DNA of 64,000 nt from an uncultured candidate division Zixibacteria bacterium (GCA_963817915.1 CAWFQL010000003.1:1-64000), one strand, 5' to 3'. Shown: positions 20,131-46,027, counted from the stretch's first letter. The notes: a model not told the origin generated them from the sequence alone. Made by a program: numbers and translations.

Positions 20131-20535
20131 GCGTGTCGCAGTTTACTGCGACCGCAACAGAAAACCCGACAGCTTGTTTTTTTTGTCGGGTTACTCATCC
20201 GCCGATGGCGGATTCTGAACCCGACCTACTCATGCTGCTTATAGGATGAAATTGTGAAATTGGCAAGCGGTAGGTCGAAACCTTTATGGTTTCGACATTG
20301 AGATGACAAAACACGATGTCGAAAGGACAAGCCTTTCGACCTACACTTGCCGCTTATAGGATGAGTTCGGAAAATTGTCAAAGAGGAAGGAGCGAGAACA
20401 TGTCATTGCGAAGCCGCCTCCGGCGGCTGAAGCAATCTGTTGGAAGCATCCTTCAGATTGCTTCGCTTCGCTCGCAATGACCGCTGAAATTGAGTTTTCT
20501 AATGCGCTGTCAGGAATCCTTTCCTGACAGCCTAC
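20131..20535. repeat. Mosaic cluster of REP-like hairpin families
   Basis: Family F at 20131, a GTAG-tailed hairpin at 20185-20228, REPIN B at 20270-20344, a GTCATTGCG..GCAATGAC element at 20401-20481, family D at 20504-20530. Confidence 0.8.
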
Positions 20536-20616
20536 CAGCTATGGCAGGGATAACATAAAGATTTTAGTAAAATTCAATAGCATTTATGAAACACTTTAAT
20601 TATAATAATCCATAAT

Positions 20617-21069
20617 ATGAATGATCGCGAAACGTCATCAGGATTTAAGTTCCCTCGAATGTTGTTAGACATATTTATTCCTGCCATCTCTCTTGCCATT
20701 ACTGTATTTGGGATAAGTAGACTTGTTCAATATTATTTTGGACGGCCATCGAGTGAAATCTTGATTGACCTGTTTTTGGGAATATTATTGGTCTCAATAT
20801 TCTTGTTCCTTTTCAGAAAAGGCAAATATTTTGAATCGAAGAAAACCTTTTTGGATAAATATCCCTTCTGGCTGCTCAAGTTAAATGGGCGCCCTCGGAT
20901 TTTTATTAGTTGGATACTAATGACTTCATATTTCTATTCAATAGTTGCCTTCATAAAATATGTATTCTTCCTTATTCATATAAATAGATCGCCGGCTAGC
21001 GATATCCAGTTACTGTTTTTGATCATGACATTAACTTATTTGACTATTCCTAAATTTGAATTAAAATAG
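20617..21069 (+). CDS. Hypothetical membrane protein (AT-rich)
   Basis: 150 aa with about four hydrophobic segments. Confidence 0.6.
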   Translation: MNDRETSSGFKFPRMLLDIFIPAISLAITVFGISRLVQYYFGRPSSEILIDLFLGILLVSIFLFLFRKGKYFESKKTFLDKYPFWLLKLNGRPRIFISWILMTSYFYSIVAFIKYVFFLIHINRSPASDIQLLFLIMTLTYLTIPKFELK

Positions 21070-21211
21070 AAAAGCGATTGCCTTGACTTCGTCAGGAAAT
21101 TCTTCCTGATAGTTCCCCGAATCCAATCTCCCCTTGCCATCTCATTTCCAGAATCGCATATTATTGCTCTATGGATGAAGTGTGGTGACAGGTTTTTAAT
21201 AAGGAGAATTT

Positions 21212-21448
21212 ATGACTGTATTCATCGATGGCGAGACATTAAATATAGAAAAAATTGAACAGATAGCCCGCAAGAACGCCGAAGTATCGTATTCCGATAT
21301 CGCTAAAAAACGTATCGACCGTTGCTGGGGCGTGCTGGAGAAGATGGTCAATTCCGGCGAGGCGATCTACGGTGTAACGACCGGTATCGGCGAATTTGCC
21401 AAAATCAGAGTCGGCCCCGAGCAGGGGTCATTGCTGCAGAAAAATTAA
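21212..21448 (+). pseudogene. hutH: Truncated 5' copy of hutH (78 codons)
   Basis: Protein identical to the first 78 aa of 23852-25384; 13 nucleotide differences, all synonymous; ends at a REP. Confidence 0.92.
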
Positions 21449-21450
21449 AA

Positions 21451-21510
21451 AGTGTCGTCAGGTCGCCCGACCTGACGACTATTGCGCTGTCAGGAAACCA
21501 TTCCCGGCAA
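21451..21510 (+). repeat. REP family C plus family D hairpins
   Basis: AGTGTCGTCAGGTCGCCCGACCTGACGAC followed by GCGCTGTCAGGAA..TTCCCGGCA. Confidence 0.8.
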
Positions 21511-21626
21511 ACACTGAATATCATGGACAATATCCTCTTGACAAACAAAACCGATATTTCTATGCTAATCATAGTAACATCGATTTAATACTATTTGCGA
21601 AAACAATGTAAATAGGAGATAAACAG

Positions 21627-22307
21627 ATGATAAGGCAATTAGCCAAAACAATCTCGATAATTGTAGCGTTATCGCCGTGGTATTGCGGCGGATTGACGGC
21701 ACAAACAAACATCAGAACCGCCGAAAACCTACAAACATCATATTGGGGAATCAAAGCAGGGATGGTAAGCGCCAAAACCCAATATGCCGCCTCCACTCGG
21801 GGTGTTGAGAATAAATATCTAAAATATCGAATTCTATATTCGTTCGGAGGATATTACGCTCATAGGATTGTCGGTTCATTGTATTTGCAGGCGGAATTGC
21901 TTTATGCGGTAAAGGGTGTCAAGTTTCAAGCCCTACGGCGAAACTTCTACGGAGAATTAATTGAACTTAAGGAAAACCAAACTTTGAATTATCTGGAATT
22001 CCCGATTATATTTAATTATGTATTTAAAGACAGTTTTATCAAACCATCGGTTTATGCCGGAGTATTTGGGGCCCATCTCCTGAAAGTTGAATCCGATTTA
22101 GGATATGATATAAGCAACGAATTCAAGCCTTCCGATTACGGTGCGATTTTTGGATTAGCGGCGTTGATGCCGATGCATGGTCGCTATATGGTCCTCGAGG
22201 GTCGTTTTGAGTCTAGCTTCGATAATGTTGTCAAAGTCGGTTACTGCGCAGCCAGCGATGGATATAAGAACAACTCATTTTCTCTGATGGCAGGAATTGC
22301 ATTTTAG
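21627..22307 (+). CDS. Outer-membrane beta-barrel (porin/PorT-like family) protein
   Basis: WGIKAG, LQAELLY, LNYLEFPI, PSVYAG, DYGAIFG; C-terminal Phe. Confidence 0.8.
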   Translation: MIRQLAKTISIIVALSPWYCGGLTAQTNIRTAENLQTSYWGIKAGMVSAKTQYAASTRGVENKYLKYRILYSFGGYYAHRIVGSLYLQAELLYAVKGVKFQALRRNFYGELIELKENQTLNYLEFPIIFNYVFKDSFIKPSVYAGVFGAHLLKVESDLGYDISNEFKPSDYGAIFGLAALMPMHGRYMVLEGRFESSFDNVVKVGYCAASDGYKNNSFSLMAGIAF

Positions 22308-22328
22308 ATGCGAAGTAATCTAATTAGA

Positions 22329-43915: not shown

Positions 43916-43931
43916 AAAGCTTGATGGCTTC

Positions 43932-44876
43932 TTAATGATAATCCGAATACAGTGTATCCGCGAATGCGTTGAAATACGGGTCGTTTGTGAGTAGTGTCAA
44001 ATGTCTTAAAAGCGCGGTTACAAGACTATGATAGTCGGCATATTGGAATGAGAATCTGAGATCATAGTGTGATATACCGCCAGGAACTCTCCAATGACCG
44101 GCATAGTGCGCAATCGTTGTACAGGCCCCCCTGAAAAGCATAAGACATCTGGAATCATGGCTTATATGATAATAATCATGTAAACCAATTATAGCTGCCA
44201 TGAATCCATTAAAAACATGATTTGGAGGATGAAAAGGGTATTCTTCTATCCAATAATAACCTGCAGAATCGACAAATGTTATCCATGCGTTAGACGATGA
44301 ATCCATATAGAGAAAAGTATTAAAAACGCTGTCCGCTAAGGATTTCATTGTATCATCGCCGGTTATTTCATATGTTCGTGAATATAAAGAGAGAACAAGA
44401 CCCTGGGCAAATCCTGAATACCATGGGGCCACCATAACATCATTTGTTTGGCCATCATGAAGGGCATAGTTAAATGGGTAAGGTGCATAAATACCGCCAT
44501 GATATCGATCGCCCAGTACGGCTAATTTTTCACAATAACTATTAACCCTGTCCAAATAACGCTGATCATGATTTATTCTATAGCTATTTAAATAAAAAAG
44601 TCCATGGTTGGCTATATTAAAGGGGTGATAATAATATTGATTGTTGTAATATGATAACACTATGTTTTCCGCGTCGTGAGCAAAATTATCGACATAGTTG
44701 AGCGATTCTGAGTGAGTATACCACCTTTGCGACCAATCGAGATTTGCATTTATATTATAGTCATTATATTTAAATTCCATATCTGGGATATCGATCGATT
44801 TTGACGGACGATCAGATGTGCAACCTGCAGTTATTATCAACATTAGCGGCAAAAGGAATTTGCGAATATTCATCAT
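43932..44876 (-). CDS. D-glucuronyl C5-epimerase C-terminal-domain lipoprotein
   Basis: TAGC lipobox; WYSGFAQG, WIEEYP, HVFNGF, SHYDL and YH motifs. Confidence 0.75.
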   Translation of the reverse strand: MMNIRKFLLPLMLIITAGCTSDRPSKSIDIPDMEFKYNDYNINANLDWSQRWYTHSESLNYVDNFAHDAENIVLSYYNNQYYYHPFNIANHGLFYLNSYRINHDQRYLDRVNSYCEKLAVLGDRYHGGIYAPYPFNYALHDGQTNDVMVAPWYSGFAQGLVLSLYSRTYEITGDDTMKSLADSVFNTFLYMDSSSNAWITFVDSAGYYWIEEYPFHPPNHVFNGFMAAIIGLHDYYHISHDSRCLMLFRGACTTIAHYAGHWRVPGGISHYDLRFSFQYADYHSLVTALLRHLTLLTNDPYFNAFADTLYSDYH

Positions 44877-45020
44877 TCATTCTCCCTTTTGGATTTAAAG
44901 CTCAGGATTTGCATCCTTATGGCCTGTTTTTATATAAGCAAGCCGGTCGCCAGATGCAATAAAAAAACTTGACATTTAGGCCTAAATCAATAAGTTGGAC
45001 TTCCGATAGAGTTATTGAAT

Positions 45021-45093
45021 TCCCCGGTAGCTCAGCTGGTGGAGCAAGTGACTGTTAATCACTGGGTCGCTGGTTCGAATCCGGCCCGGGGAG
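45021..45093 (+). tRNA. tRNA-Asn (GTT)
   Basis: Acceptor stem TCCCCGG/CCGGGGA, anticodon arm AGTGA-CTGTTAA-TCACT, TTCGAAT T-loop; no encoded CCA. Confidence 0.97.
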
Positions 45094-45111
45094 TTTTTTT
45101 TATATAGATTA

Positions 45112-45207
45112 TAGCCTCAGCTGATGGAGTTCGGCAGTCGCCGGATTAATCACTGGGTCGCTGGCTGAAAGTCCGGCTTTCGACGGATTCGAATCCGGCC
45201 CGGGGAG
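45112..45207 (+). pseudogene. Degenerate tRNA-Asn copy interrupted by two short palindromic segments
   Basis: D-arm-like start; exact TTAATCACTGGGTCGCTGG and TTCGAATCCGGCCCGGGGAG; anticodon lost. Confidence 0.8.
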
Positions 45208-45285
45208 TTTTTTTTTACTCCATAAATAAATTAATCAGAAAATTTAAAAGTGGAATATGCGAGTAGTTGGAAATATAATTAGAAG

Positions 45286-45834
45286 ATGCTGCTCCCAACT
45301 CTAAAAGGTACTCATCTCTGTCTAAGGCCGCTTAAACGATCCGACATCCCGGCGCTGAAAAGGCAGGGAAACGACCAGACTATCTCGAGATTTATTCCAT
45401 CGATTCACTTCCCATATACTTCTGAAAATGCTCGCCGCTGGGTAAACCGCACATGTCGTTTGGCACGAAATGATTCGGCCTGCCAGTTGGGAATTGAGCT
45501 AATCGCCAAAAAAGGTATAATAGGCATGATGGGTCTAAAGAATCTCAACCGAGTCGACCGCAACGGAGAATTGGAGTATTGGCTGGGGCGTAGTTACAGA
45601 GGTCAGTCATACTCCTCGGAGGCTATGAAGTTAATGCTTGGATATGCATTTAACGATCTCTGTCTGCACCGTGTTTATGCGATAGTAGTTTCATCAAACG
45701 TGCCTTCCGTCAAATTGCTGGAACGGTTTGGTTTTAAGCGGGAAGCGGTATGGCGCGATGCTTCTTGGATGAACAAGAGCTGGCATGATGTTTATTGCTA
45801 TGGCCTGCTGGAGTCAGAAGCAGAGCGAGTATAA
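45286..45834 (+). CDS. RimJ/RimL family GNAT N-acetyltransferase
   Basis: LCLRPL, ELEYWLG, NVPSVKLLERFGFKRE, WHDVYCYGLL. Confidence 0.88.
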   Translation: MLLPTLKGTHLCLRPLKRSDIPALKRQGNDQTISRFIPSIHFPYTSENARRWVNRTCRLARNDSACQLGIELIAKKGIIGMMGLKNLNRVDRNGELEYWLGRSYRGQSYSSEAMKLMLGYAFNDLCLHRVYAIVVSSNVPSVKLLERFGFKREAVWRDASWMNKSWHDVYCYGLLESEAERV

Positions 45835-46027
45835 AAAATTCATGTTATCTATGAATAGAGAGTTGGATAATTCGCGAATTAAAGAGCCCGGGGAGTTTTT
45901 TTATCGCCAATAATTCTAATAAACAATTGACATCCATTGTATCCATATTTATATTTAGCCTATAAAAATATTAATCTTCCGTTTCTATAACGGGATTCCA
46001 TGAAACCATAACGTTTCTGGAGGATAC

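What the first reader, a model, noticed from the sequence alone, without database searches (positions are those of the whole stretch)
20131..45902. Candidate integrase-free cassette-accretion system: inserts bracketed by allelic gene-end copies, with junctions at RAYT-linked REPs
Seen in sequence: accessory DNA is repeatedly flanked by a second copy of the neighbouring core-gene end. The pairs are hutH 5' (21212-21445 vs 23852-24085; 13 of 13 differences synonymous), thpR 3' (26995-27097 vs 27721-27823; 10 synonymous, 2 conservative), nupC 3' (41911-41997 vs 43829-43915; 10 of 10 silent), the tRNA-Asn 3' end, and duplicated promoters. The hutH and thpR remnants break off within about 5 bp of the (G/A)AGTG tail of family C REPs, the family flanking the RAYT gene. 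No integrase is present. Established: HUH RAYTs nick and strand-transfer ssDNA next to REP hairpins. Inference: silent-only divergence means both copies were functional alleles. Foreign DNA from a relative may therefore enter by homologous recombination in a core gene on one side and a RAYT/REP-guided joint on the other, leaving the displaced gene end as a scar.
Basis: partly seen in the sequence, partly recalled or inferred. Interest (0 to 1): 0.85.

Follow-up and report, generated by a model that had tools for sequence, protein, structure and literature searches.

The report
Gene-end duplicates joined at REP hairpins
Inserted DNA in this uncultured bacterium is bracketed by second, allele-like copies of neighbouring gene ends that begin a few bases after a REP hairpin, and a similar scar flanks the REP-associated transposase gene in four other genomes, which may be the first footprint of how these elements move.

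Summary
The hutH 5' end, thpR 3' end and nupC 3' end each occur twice, bracketing 0.6-2.6 kb inserts. The copies differ by 33 synonymous and 2 conservative changes (P=3e-12 against neutral decay of one copy). They are therefore alleles from diverged lineages (pS 0.25-0.52), not decayed local duplicates. The hutH and thpR remnants start 4 and 1 nt from the GAGTG/CACTC end of REPs that flank a once-frameshifted RAYT. The nupC and tRNA-Asn cases have no REP.

New here: the layout [quoted passage not shown] recurs.
- It occurs at about 8 further places in this genome.
- It flanks the RAYT gene itself in four other genomes: G201, G006, L121 and L182. Counting this window, that is 5 of about 78 evaluable RAYT loci.
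- Duplicate boundaries sit at REP tails (9 of 154) more often than at shifted control positions (0-4).

I read these as footprints of REP-anchored additive integration, probably RAYT-assisted. Catalysis, the donors and the correctness of the assembly are untested: no reads were available, and the MAG holds strain-variant contigs.

The parts
20131..20560 (.). Cluster of palindromic repeats upstream of ORF X, including REP B at 20504-20531. Parts recur at 23233-23413.
21090..21199 (+). Promoter-like ~100-nt repeat, copy 1. Other copies lie at 23391-23496, 23530-23581 (partial) and 23685-23790.
   Evidence: (D5, D8); no Rfam match
21212..21448 (+). hutH 5' remnant: 78 codons, then a stop made by the junction. 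13 of 13 differences from the intact copy are synonymous.
   Evidence: (PF00221 positions 1-69)
21450..21479 (+). REP (type A): AAGTG head plus an 11-bp-stem hairpin. The hutH remnant ends 4 nt before the head.
21627..23217 (+). Cargo of the insert: two paralogous outer-membrane beta-barrel genes (21627-22307 and 22534-23217), with REP A/C copies between them at 22329-22470.
23852..25384 (+). Intact hutH (histidine ammonia-lyase, 510 aa).
   Evidence: PF00221, 598.7 bits
25434..25500 (+). Fragment resembling the RAYT 3' end plus a degenerate REP C, just after hutH.
   Evidence: (D13)
26518..27097 (+). Intact thpR (LigT-type 2',5' RNA ligase family, 186 aa) plus a 19-nt tail shared with the remnant.
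27098..27720 (+). REPtron: REP C (27109-27136), REP A (27163-27192), then the RAYT gene 27206-27689 with one frameshift near 27452-27465, then REP C (27692-27719) ending GCACTC.
   Evidence: ORF1 gives Y1_Tnp at only 15.5 bits. Intact 156-183-aa relatives score 26.6-33.5 bits, above the cut-off.
27721..27845 (+). thpR 3' remnant: 27 codons, stop and tail. It starts 1 nt after the REP C tail. 10 synonymous and 2 conservative differences.
27968..29033 (+). recA, split by a 1-nt frameshift near 28703-28708. In 12 of 13 family relatives recA lies within 484 nt of thpR.
40720..41997 (+). Intact nupC-type nucleoside transporter gene.
42009..43688 (-). Cargo of the nupC insert: a 559-aa protein with a type IX secretion C-terminal sorting domain.
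43828..43914 (+). nupC 3' remnant: 28 codons plus stop. All 9 codon differences are synonymous and the stop is TAA vs TAG. There is no REP at either boundary.
45020..45902 (+). tRNA-Asn (45020-45094), a degenerate second copy (45112-45215), a GNAT gene (45286-45834), and a 17-nt exact tRNA 3' fragment (45886-45902).

Best explanation
These are scars of additive (duplicative) integration of DNA segments that end in a REP.

Proposed mechanism:
- A single-stranded segment [S - cargo - REP] has a 3' end lying 2-6 nt beyond the REP's CAC tail. S is the end of a gene.
- The segment is inserted at the resident copy of S.
- Its S end joins seamlessly. Its REP end is joined to the first base of the resident S.
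- The resident S is kept as the displaced remnant.

Source of the segments:
- For the three window pairs, the incoming S came from a lineage as diverged as another species.
- Elsewhere it came from the same genome or population.

Likely enzyme: the REP-associated HUH tyrosine transposase (RAYT), which is known to nick single-stranded DNA beside REP hairpins and to transfer strands, most likely makes the REP-side cut or joint. It could act on replication or recombination intermediates, such as the displaced strand of a D-loop formed by incoming DNA.

Shown: the architecture, its allelic nature, its recurrence and its geometry. Inferred: single-strandedness, RAYT catalysis, the order of events and the route of DNA entry.

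The nupC and tRNA-Asn scars have the same layout without a REP, so they used another joint.
For: 1. Allelic copies: 33 synonymous and 2 conservative differences. No third copy exists in the genome.

2. Geometry at 12 junctions, measured in 10 (L121 and L182 read by eye; all 10 measured fit). The 12 are hutH, thpR, C9:342401, C6:93902, C10:90005, C21:25062, C11:39409, the C7 tandem, G201/L111, G006/L097, L121 and L182.
- Hairpin foot to junction is 5-9 nt in these 12, and 5-11 nt in all that measured.
- The junction lies 2-6 nt after CAC (counted by eye).
- The duplicated segment starts with A in 11 of the 12.

3. Enrichment: 9 of 154 oriented REP tails carry the start of one of the genome's 65 local low-copy duplicates. 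Shifted positions give 0-4, the other side of the hairpin gives 2 true cases, and 0.09 is expected if boundaries were uniform.

4. RAYT genes bracketed by a duplicate of the neighbouring gene end that abuts the REP tail:
- thpR, 125 nt, 88% (this window).
- asnS-like, at least 83 nt, 100% (L111).
- A secreted-protein gene, 110 nt, 99% (L121).
- ispD-like, 85 nt, 89% (L182).
- The 5' end of a gene, 67 nt, 78% (L097, closed genome G006).

5. Empty sites at genus level: 12 of 13 family relatives have thpR and recA matches 40-484 nt apart. This RAYT type was found in only 3 of those 13 and in 11 of 285 genomes of the phylum including G000.

6. Published biochemistry (PMC8266576, passages read): TnpAREP cleaves ssDNA 5' and 3' of REP hairpins at sites chosen by the tetranucleotide 5' of the hairpin, and any 3'-OH can resolve the covalent intermediate.
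Against: - nupC and tRNA-Asn show the same layout with no REP.
- The local RAYT has a frameshift.
- Enrichment over nearby control positions is only about 3-6-fold. It rests on 9 events, two of which (C11:27179 and C17:74458) are REP clusters.
- The looser count without the locality filter gave 20 at tails against 1-16 at the control positions (other side of the hairpin and shifts of 30-300 nt).
- No consensus is seen on the 5' side of the cut, unlike the CT/CA sites of studied RAYTs.
- Only 5 of about 78 evaluable RAYT loci show the bracket.
- The start-with-A rule is post hoc.
- The MAG holds strain-variant contigs at 91.7-97.9% identity and shows indel errors or real frameshifts in recA and RAYT.
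Confidence: 0.45

Rival explanations
1. REP hairpins mark the joints passively, with no RAYT catalysis. In this view hairpins stall replication or protect a 3' end from exonucleases. Breaks, template switches or trimmed ends of incoming DNA then lie a few bases from the hairpin foot. They are joined by illegitimate or microhomology-mediated recombination, of the homology-facilitated illegitimate recombination type.
For: - The distance from foot to junction varies (5-11 nt) and no cut-site consensus is seen on the REP side.
- The thpR junction has 7 of 10 matches between the REP tail and the gene sequence it replaces.
- REPs occur at some duplication and amplification joints in E. coli (PMC1428787, passages).
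- One-sided homology plus an illegitimate joint is the model proposed for displaced effector ends in Vibrio T6SS arrays (PMC5361080, passages).
- nupC shows that a REP is not required.
Against: - The joints lie on the tail (CAC) side far more often than on the other side of the same hairpins: 9 against 2 true cases.
- The bracket recurs specifically around RAYT genes in five genomes.
- 11 of 12 junctions start with A.
Confidence: 0.25
2. The scars are decayed site-specific integrative islets of the icd/e14 kind. Elements that insert into a gene end carry a surrogate end, so the gene stays intact and the displaced end remains on the far side. Here the integrases would since have been lost.
For: - The architecture and the silent-only divergence are what icd / e14 / icdC show (PMC13626634, passages).
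- Repeats of a tRNA 3' end around a small GNAT islet are typical of such elements.
- hutH has an 18-nt identical block at the inner boundary.
Against: - No PF00589 integrase lies on the 168-kb contig.
- The inserts are only 0.6-2.6 kb.
- thpR and nupC have mismatches within 7-12 nt of the inner boundary, where an att core should be identical.
- This model does not explain the fixed REP-tail geometry or its recurrence at RAYT loci.
Confidence: 0.15
3. Assembly artefact. Under this rival the contig braids two co-occurring strains, so the 'remnants' are pieces of the other strain's allele placed beside a strain-specific insert.
For: - The bin contains strain-variant contigs: C14 matches C12 at 97.9%, C13 matches C12 at 91.7%, C20/C21 match C16 at 94-97%, and C1:3813-6364 matches window 35472-38023 at 97.6%.
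- recA and RAYT carry single-base frameshifts.
Against: - The junction sequences share no repeat with the intact genes that could mislead an assembler. Only 18 identical nt precede the hutH break, followed by unrelated sequence. REP copies are alike over only about 30 nt.
- The same layout, with the same REP-tail distance, occurs in four independent assemblies, including the single-contig genome G006.
- Variant strains were output as separate contigs, not merged into the main contigs.
Confidence: 0.08
4. In-situ long target duplication or tandem duplication at REP tails, followed by allelic replacement of the functional copy by ordinary homologous recombination.
For: - Several REP-tail duplicates are 98-100% identical: C21, C6, C9, G201 and L121.
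- C7 is a plain tandem duplication of an 876-nt unit joined at a REP tail.
Against: - For thpR the differences run to within 14 nt of the end of the duplicated block, so a replacement tract would have to end inside that stretch.
- The same coincidence would be needed three times.
- The remnants show no excess of nonsynonymous change.
Confidence: 0.07

Closest known systems
REPtrons: RAYT (TnpAREP) with its REP/REPIN population
   Same: - A Y1 HUH transposase gene of about 160 aa is flanked by REP hairpins with a conserved 5-nt motif at the foot (GAGTG here, GTAG in the studied groups).
- The same REPs are dispersed in the genome.
- The enzyme class nicks ssDNA beside REPs and transfers strands (PMC8266576).
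   Different: - The passages I read state there is 'no evidence of tnpAREP mobility' and that the dissemination mechanism is unknown.
- Here the RAYT gene is bracketed by duplicated host gene ends in 5 genomes.
- This type is patchy, found in 11 of 285 genomes.
- I saw no mention of such flanking duplicates in the passages shown from PMC5581495 or PMC8266576. Three searches listed 13, 0 and 3 papers.
IS200/IS605 peel-and-paste transposition; one-ended capture by IS91/ISCR and Helitrons (the latter recalled, not checked)
   Same: - HUH chemistry on single strands.
- Ends defined by subterminal hairpins, with the cut a few bases 3' of the right-end hairpin.
- The left cleavage site doubles as the target site (PMC8266576 discussion).
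- Capture of adjacent host DNA when one end is not used (recalled).
   Different: - Those elements make no flanking duplication and insert at many sites.
- Here the captured flank is homologous to the target and ends up duplicated.
- No conserved target tetranucleotide is seen.
Homology-facilitated illegitimate recombination and effector/C-terminal displacement (Vibrio T6SS arrays, Rhs)
   Same: - Foreign DNA is added using homology on one side only.
- The old gene end is pushed downstream and kept.
- No integrase is involved (PMC5361080).
   Different: - Those arrays concern polymorphic toxin loci.
- Their joints are not tied to a repeat element.
- Here two of the joints, and about 8 more in the genome, sit at a fixed distance from a REP.
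Gene-end replacement by integrative elements (e14 in icd, with the icdC pseudogene)
   Same: - The intact gene runs into the element.
- The displaced C-terminal fragment lies at the other end.
- The differences are mostly silent (PMC13626634).
   Different: - e14 is a 15-kb prophage with its own site-specific recombinase.
- The inserts here are 0.6-2.6 kb with no integrase.
Transformation-generated merodiploids in Streptococcus pneumoniae
   Same: Incoming DNA that carries a chromosomal repeat plus a unique flank creates duplications by integrating across sister chromatids (PMC3784515).
   Different: - Those duplications are 100-900 kb, lie between IS copies and depend on homology at both ends.
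- Here the duplicated blocks are 53-350 nt, and one joint is non-homologous.

Membership tests
RAYT / REPtron | Y1 HUH transposase fold (PF01797) with HUH and catalytic Tyr motifs | tested here: inconclusive
   The window gene is split by one frameshift. ORF1 scores 15.5 bits (cut-off 23) and ORF2 gives no hit. Read by eye, it carries SHFHL and a YIHYNP-type motif. Intact relatives at 48-67% identity score 26.6-33.5 bits, over the cut-off.
RAYT / REPtron | Gene flanked by REP hairpins that are also dispersed through the genome | tested here: met
   REP C, REP A and REP C flank the gene. With up to 4 mismatches there are 36 C-type, 26 A-type (both strands counted) and 17 B-type matches. The superfamily pattern gives 127 matches in G000, against 0 for the reversed control.
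RAYT / REPtron | Single copy, vertically inherited (domesticated) | tested here: not met
   It is single copy in G000. However, it was found in only 11 of 285 genomes and 8 of 130 genera of the phylum, and it is not at the thpR-recA site in relatives. The genome also has 8 other Y1_Tnp hits.
IS200/IS605 | Insertion without flanking duplication, 3' of a fixed tetranucleotide; multiple identical copies | tested here: not met
   Flanking duplicates of 53-246 nt are present. No shared tetranucleotide precedes the junctions. The element is single copy.
Tyrosine-integrase genomic island / CIME | Integrase gene in or next to the insert | tested here: not met
   No PF00589 hit lies on contig C3. None of the 25 ORFs scanned hit a recombinase family.
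Tyrosine-integrase genomic island / CIME | Identical att core at the inner edge of both repeats | tested here: inconclusive
   hutH has 18 identical nt at the edge. The tRNA fragment is 17 nt exact. thpR and nupC have mismatches within 7-12 nt of the edge.
Homology-facilitated illegitimate recombination | One homologous anchor, one joint at no homology or microhomology, foreign donor | tested here: inconclusive
   Allelic divergence shows a foreign donor. One joint is non-homologous. The layout is duplication rather than the deletion usually described (recalled). Uptake and RecA dependence are not testable, and recA itself carries a frameshift in this assembly.

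The most novel reading that the evidence does not exclude
REP ends plus a RAYT may form a one-ended HUH recombination system with three activities:
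- It cuts a few bases beyond a REP.
- It carries along whatever lies upstream, up to a second cut inside a neighbouring gene.
- It pastes this strand into the same gene of another chromosome, including that of a diverged relative.

The captured gene end would act as the homing address and keep the target gene intact, while the displaced end remains as a scar. This would be a bacterial counterpart of Helitron/ISCR gene capture. It would give an integrase-free route by which REPtrons move and small cargo genes accumulate between core genes. On this reading the 6.3-kb stretch 21446-27720, bounded by outward-facing REPs and holding a RAYT, would be one such unit.
Probability: 0.25. Interest if true: 0.85.

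Novelty: new variant of a known kind. Interest (0 to 1): 0.66.

Why it matters
How REPs and their RAYT genes spread is an open question. A 2021 study of the enzyme states that there is no evidence of RAYT gene mobility and that the dissemination pathway is unknown (PMC8266576).

Scars with a fixed geometry around RAYT genes in five genomes give that question concrete, testable predictions:
- The cut position should be 2-6 nt after the tail and 5' of an A.
- The substrate should be single-stranded.
- One end should be homology-assisted.

If the reading holds, REPs would also be entry points for foreign cargo between conserved genes. In MAGs they would be a source of allele-like gene fragments that could be mistaken for strain contamination.

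Tried and rejected
- **Sequencing runs:** none was listed for window 20100-28100, so no read-level test of the junctions, empty sites or circles could be made.
- **Metagenome scan with HutH:** the best relatives were only 79-83% identical in protein and shared no neighbours, so there are no strain-level empty sites.
- **Species-representative relatives:** they are about 75% identical in DNA and none is in the same genus.
- **Earlier notes of this scan:** none concerned REP or RAYT.
- **Protein-level search for gene fragments next to 51 REP heads:** 12 head-side flanks and 13 other-side flanks had non-self hits. There was no difference; most hits are ordinary neighbouring genes or repeat ORFs.
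- **First, loose boundary count:** it showed only about 2-fold enrichment, because REP neighbourhoods are full of other repeats. It was replaced by the local, low-copy count.
- **Upstream repeats at 10.8-18 kb:** these are paralogous secretion-tail domains plus another REP family, not gene-end remnants.
- **The other 8 Y1_Tnp loci of G000:** they are flanked by REPs only.
- **Rfam:** nothing but the tRNA in 19500-46500.
- **Phylum-wide RAYT search:** it repeated the class search, because the same 285 genomes were scanned.
- **Large tandem duplication of the whole region:** rejected, because the remnants sit beside their own intact genes.

Full report
**What the window is.**
The window is the first 64 kb of contig C3 of a 3.33-Mb, 22-contig MAG (93.9% complete, 2.7% contaminated). 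Earlier notes of this scan call it Zixibacteria (not checked by me). Relatives fetched bear that name in their record titles.
- dnaA lies at 9425-10792.
- The finding covers a core block, hutH - thpR - recA - recX, and further on nupC and tRNA-Asn, interleaved with accessory genes.

**The observation.**
All three protein-gene pairs exist at the stated coordinates.
- In frame, hutH shows 13 of 13 synonymous differences.
- thpR shows 10 synonymous codons plus R/K and I/V.
- nupC shows 9 synonymous codons plus TAG/TAA.
- By Nei-Gojobori counting the total is 33 synonymous and 2 nonsynonymous, with pS of 0.25, 0.52 and 0.44.
- If one copy had drifted neutrally since a local duplication, about 62% of differences should be nonsynonymous (P=3e-12 jointly; 2e-6, 0.002 and 2e-4 singly).
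- No third copy exists in the genome.

Both copies therefore diverged as working genes in separate lineages, about as far apart as different species, and the remnants are young.

The tRNA-Asn case is a degenerate second tRNA copy and a 17-nt exact 3' fragment around a GNAT gene. The 'duplicated promoter' is a roughly 100-nt repeat with four copies and no Rfam match.

**REPs and the RAYT.**
The gene at 27206-27689 is a RAYT broken by one frameshift. Its relatives are single ORFs of 156-183 aa that pass Pfam Y1_Tnp. It is flanked by REP C, REP A and REP C.

REP A and REP C are the two orientations of one design: a 9-11-bp GC-rich hairpin with GAGTG at its 5' foot, which reads CACTC at the 3' foot on the other strand.
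- The hutH remnant ends 4 nt before such a head.
- The thpR remnant starts 1 nt after such a tail.
- The nupC junctions have no hairpin.
- No PF00589 integrase is on the contig.

**Is it genome-wide?**
A self-alignment of the genome, filtered for truncated copies of gene ends, finds clean allelic gene-end remnants of real genes essentially only in this window. The allele-bearing scars are thus a local cluster, not a genome-wide habit.

The REP link is wider.
- I defined 154 oriented REP tails and 65 local (<20 kb), direct, low-copy duplicate pairs.
- Nine tails have a duplicate copy starting -4 to +10 nt from the tail.
- The same window shifted by 20-500 nt catches 0-4 (means 1.7 and 1.4).
- The far side of the hairpin catches 5, of which 3 are the same palindromes read on the other strand.
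- A uniform spread predicts 0.09. Poisson P is 0.007 to 5e-5.
- Two of the nine (C11:27179 and C17:74458) are REP clusters and doubtful. C6:93902 fits but was lost to my depth filter.
- A looser count without the locality filter gave only about 2-fold enrichment.

**What the extra cases look like.**
Each has the layout S - X - REP | S' - Y.
- C9: 16 codons plus the ribosome-binding site of an aspartase/fumarase-like gene (name read by eye from the N-terminus), 98% identical, cut off at a REP 107 nt upstream of the intact start.
- C6: a 199-nt terminator region, 99.5% identical, bracketing a 2-kb insert.
- C10: 238 nt at 87%.
- C21: the 5' part of another RAYT, 100% identical.
- C7: a plain tandem duplication of an 876-nt unit joined at a REP tail.

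**RAYT loci elsewhere.**
This RAYT type occurs in 11 of 285 genomes of the phylum, 12 loci in all.
- Eight loci have at least 600 nt on both sides, and a ninth (L111) ends 117 nt after the gene. Of these nine, three show a flanking duplicate of a neighbouring gene end:
  - G000, thpR.
  - G201/L111: an asnS-like 3' end plus tail, 83 of 83 nt identical, with the second copy at the contig end.
  - G006/L097, a single-contig genome: ribosome-binding site plus 12 codons of the downstream gene, 67 nt at 78%, with amino-acid changes.
- Three loci sit within 370 nt of a contig start and could not be judged.
- A scan of species-representative genomes with a RAYT alignment gave 80 loci, 69 of them evaluable.
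  - 24 had bracketing repeats of at least 45 nt. By eye most are REP/REPIN arrays.
  - L141 has paralogous flanking genes.
  - L166 and L174 have longer multi-copy repeats that I did not resolve.
  - Two are gene-end duplicates. L121 is a Zixibacteria MAG, with 110 nt at 99.1% covering the last 12 codons of a secreted protein plus tail. L182 is an Ignavibacteria MAG, with 85 nt at 89% and indels, from near the end of an ispD-like gene. Both have other REP families.
- In all five genomes the displaced copy abuts the REP tail.

**Geometry.**
I took 12 junctions, after dropping the two REP-cluster cases. One search measured 10 of them; L121 and L182 were read by eye.
- The junction lies 5-9 nt from the hairpin foot (5-11 nt over all cases measured) and 2-6 nt after CAC (counted by eye).
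- The duplicated block begins with A in 11 of 12. P=5.5e-6 at 27% A. This is a post hoc test. With the two dropped cases it is 12 of 14.
- No motif is shared on the 5' side.

**Empty sites.**
In 12 of 13 family relatives the thpR and recA matches lie 40-484 nt apart. This RAYT type was found in only 3 of those 13 genomes. The RAYT unit is therefore an insertion in G000. Finer, strain-level comparison was not possible.

**Reading.**
The simplest common description is additive integration of a strand [S - cargo - REP].
- Its S end merges with the resident S.
- Its REP end is joined to the first base of the resident S, which survives as the remnant.
- This accounts for three features: the remnant begins exactly where homology begins, it touches the REP tail, and the copies can be identical (donor of the same clone) or allelic (diverged donor).
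- A D-loop made by incoming single-stranded DNA offers such a geometry. RAYT chemistry fits the REP-side joint: ssDNA nicking beside REPs, and resolution of the covalent intermediate by any 3'-OH (PMC8266576).
- All of this is inference.

One further point: 21446-27720 is bounded by outward-facing REPs and carries intact hutH, thpR and the RAYT. The two REP-linked remnants may therefore be the two ends of a single 6.3-kb replacement. The pS values of the two pairs differ (0.25 vs 0.52, Fisher P=0.03), which mildly argues for two events.

**Rivals.**
- Passive hairpin effects (stalling or exonuclease protection) explain the variable spacing and the REP-less nupC scar. They do not explain the strand bias or the RAYT association.
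- Decayed integrase islets of the icd/e14 type (PMC13626634) fit nupC and tRNA-Asn best.
- An assembly chimera cannot be excluded without reads. The bin does hold strain-variant contigs, and recA and RAYT have single-base frameshifts. Against it, the junctions offer no repeat to mislead an assembler, and the layout recurs in independent assemblies.

**Known or new.**
The following are in print:
- One-sided homology with displacement of a gene end (PMC5361080).
- Gene-end replacement by integrative elements.
- REPs at some duplication joints (PMC1428787).
- Transformation-made duplications (PMC3784515).

I found no description of host gene-end duplicates flanking RAYT genes or tied to REP tails. 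This rests on searches, and on passages of PMC5581495 and PMC8266576. It covers only the papers held in the library, and I did not read them in full. I file the finding as a new variant of known kinds.

Noticed in passing
window 27968-29033: recA is split by a 1-nt insertion near 28703-28708. Frame 0 stops after 262 aa, and the conserved C-terminal part continues in the +1 frame, as seen by comparison with G006 recA. This is either a real loss of RecA or an assembly indel error. In the second case the RAYT frameshift may also be an error.
   Followed up: partly
G000 contigs C13, C14, C20, C21, C1 vs C12, C16, C3: The bin holds strain-variant contigs. C14 matches C12:593818-601155 at 97.9%. C13 matches C12:485933-490065 at 91.7%. 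C20, C21 and the end of C16 match at 94-97%. The ends of C3 and C7 share 3.3 kb at 97.6%.
   Followed up: partly
window 33029-39783 and G000:C1: C1:3813-6364 is 97.6% identical to the FG-GAP secreted-protein gene at 35472-38023. Its neighbours differ: there is an extra ~1.8 kb, and the next gene is only 72% alike. This is either an alternative arrangement of the type IX secretion cargo array or a paralogous locus. The array genes share their 250-nt sorting-domain ends at 66-80%.
   Followed up: partly
window 38115-39783 (-): Two overlapping ORFs (254 and 335 aa) look like one secreted-protein gene split by a frameshift.
   Followed up: no
window 9425-10792: dnaA lies here, so the window lies next to the likely replication origin.
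   Followed up: no
window 10883-10966, 12370-12453, 16062-16140: A second REP family has a GTAG-type head (GTAGGGCAGGAGTG...CACTCCTGCC) and occurs as inverted doublets downstream of secreted-protein genes. The genome carries several REP families and 8 further Y1_Tnp genes, including an IS200-like one at 57499-57927.
   Followed up: partly
window 21090-21199, 23391-23496, 23530-23581, 23685-23790: A ~100-nt promoter-like repeat, with TTGCC..TATTAT-like boxes read by eye, stands upstream of hutH and its remnant. There are four copies in 2.7 kb, interleaved with REPs, and no Rfam match.
   Followed up: partly
L111 (G201:C102) 1276-2085: The contig ends exactly at the end of the 83-nt second copy of the asnS-like gene end. 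This would also fit a tandem array, or a circular form, of the 727-nt unit [gene end + REP + RAYT + REP].
   Followed up: no
G000:C9:21089-21259 vs 23188-23358: A 171-nt direct repeat at 96.5% lies next to REP B copies, about 630 nt upstream of a tyrosine integrase gene (23986-24484). It may be an ordinary integrase-bounded islet, useful for comparison.
   Followed up: no
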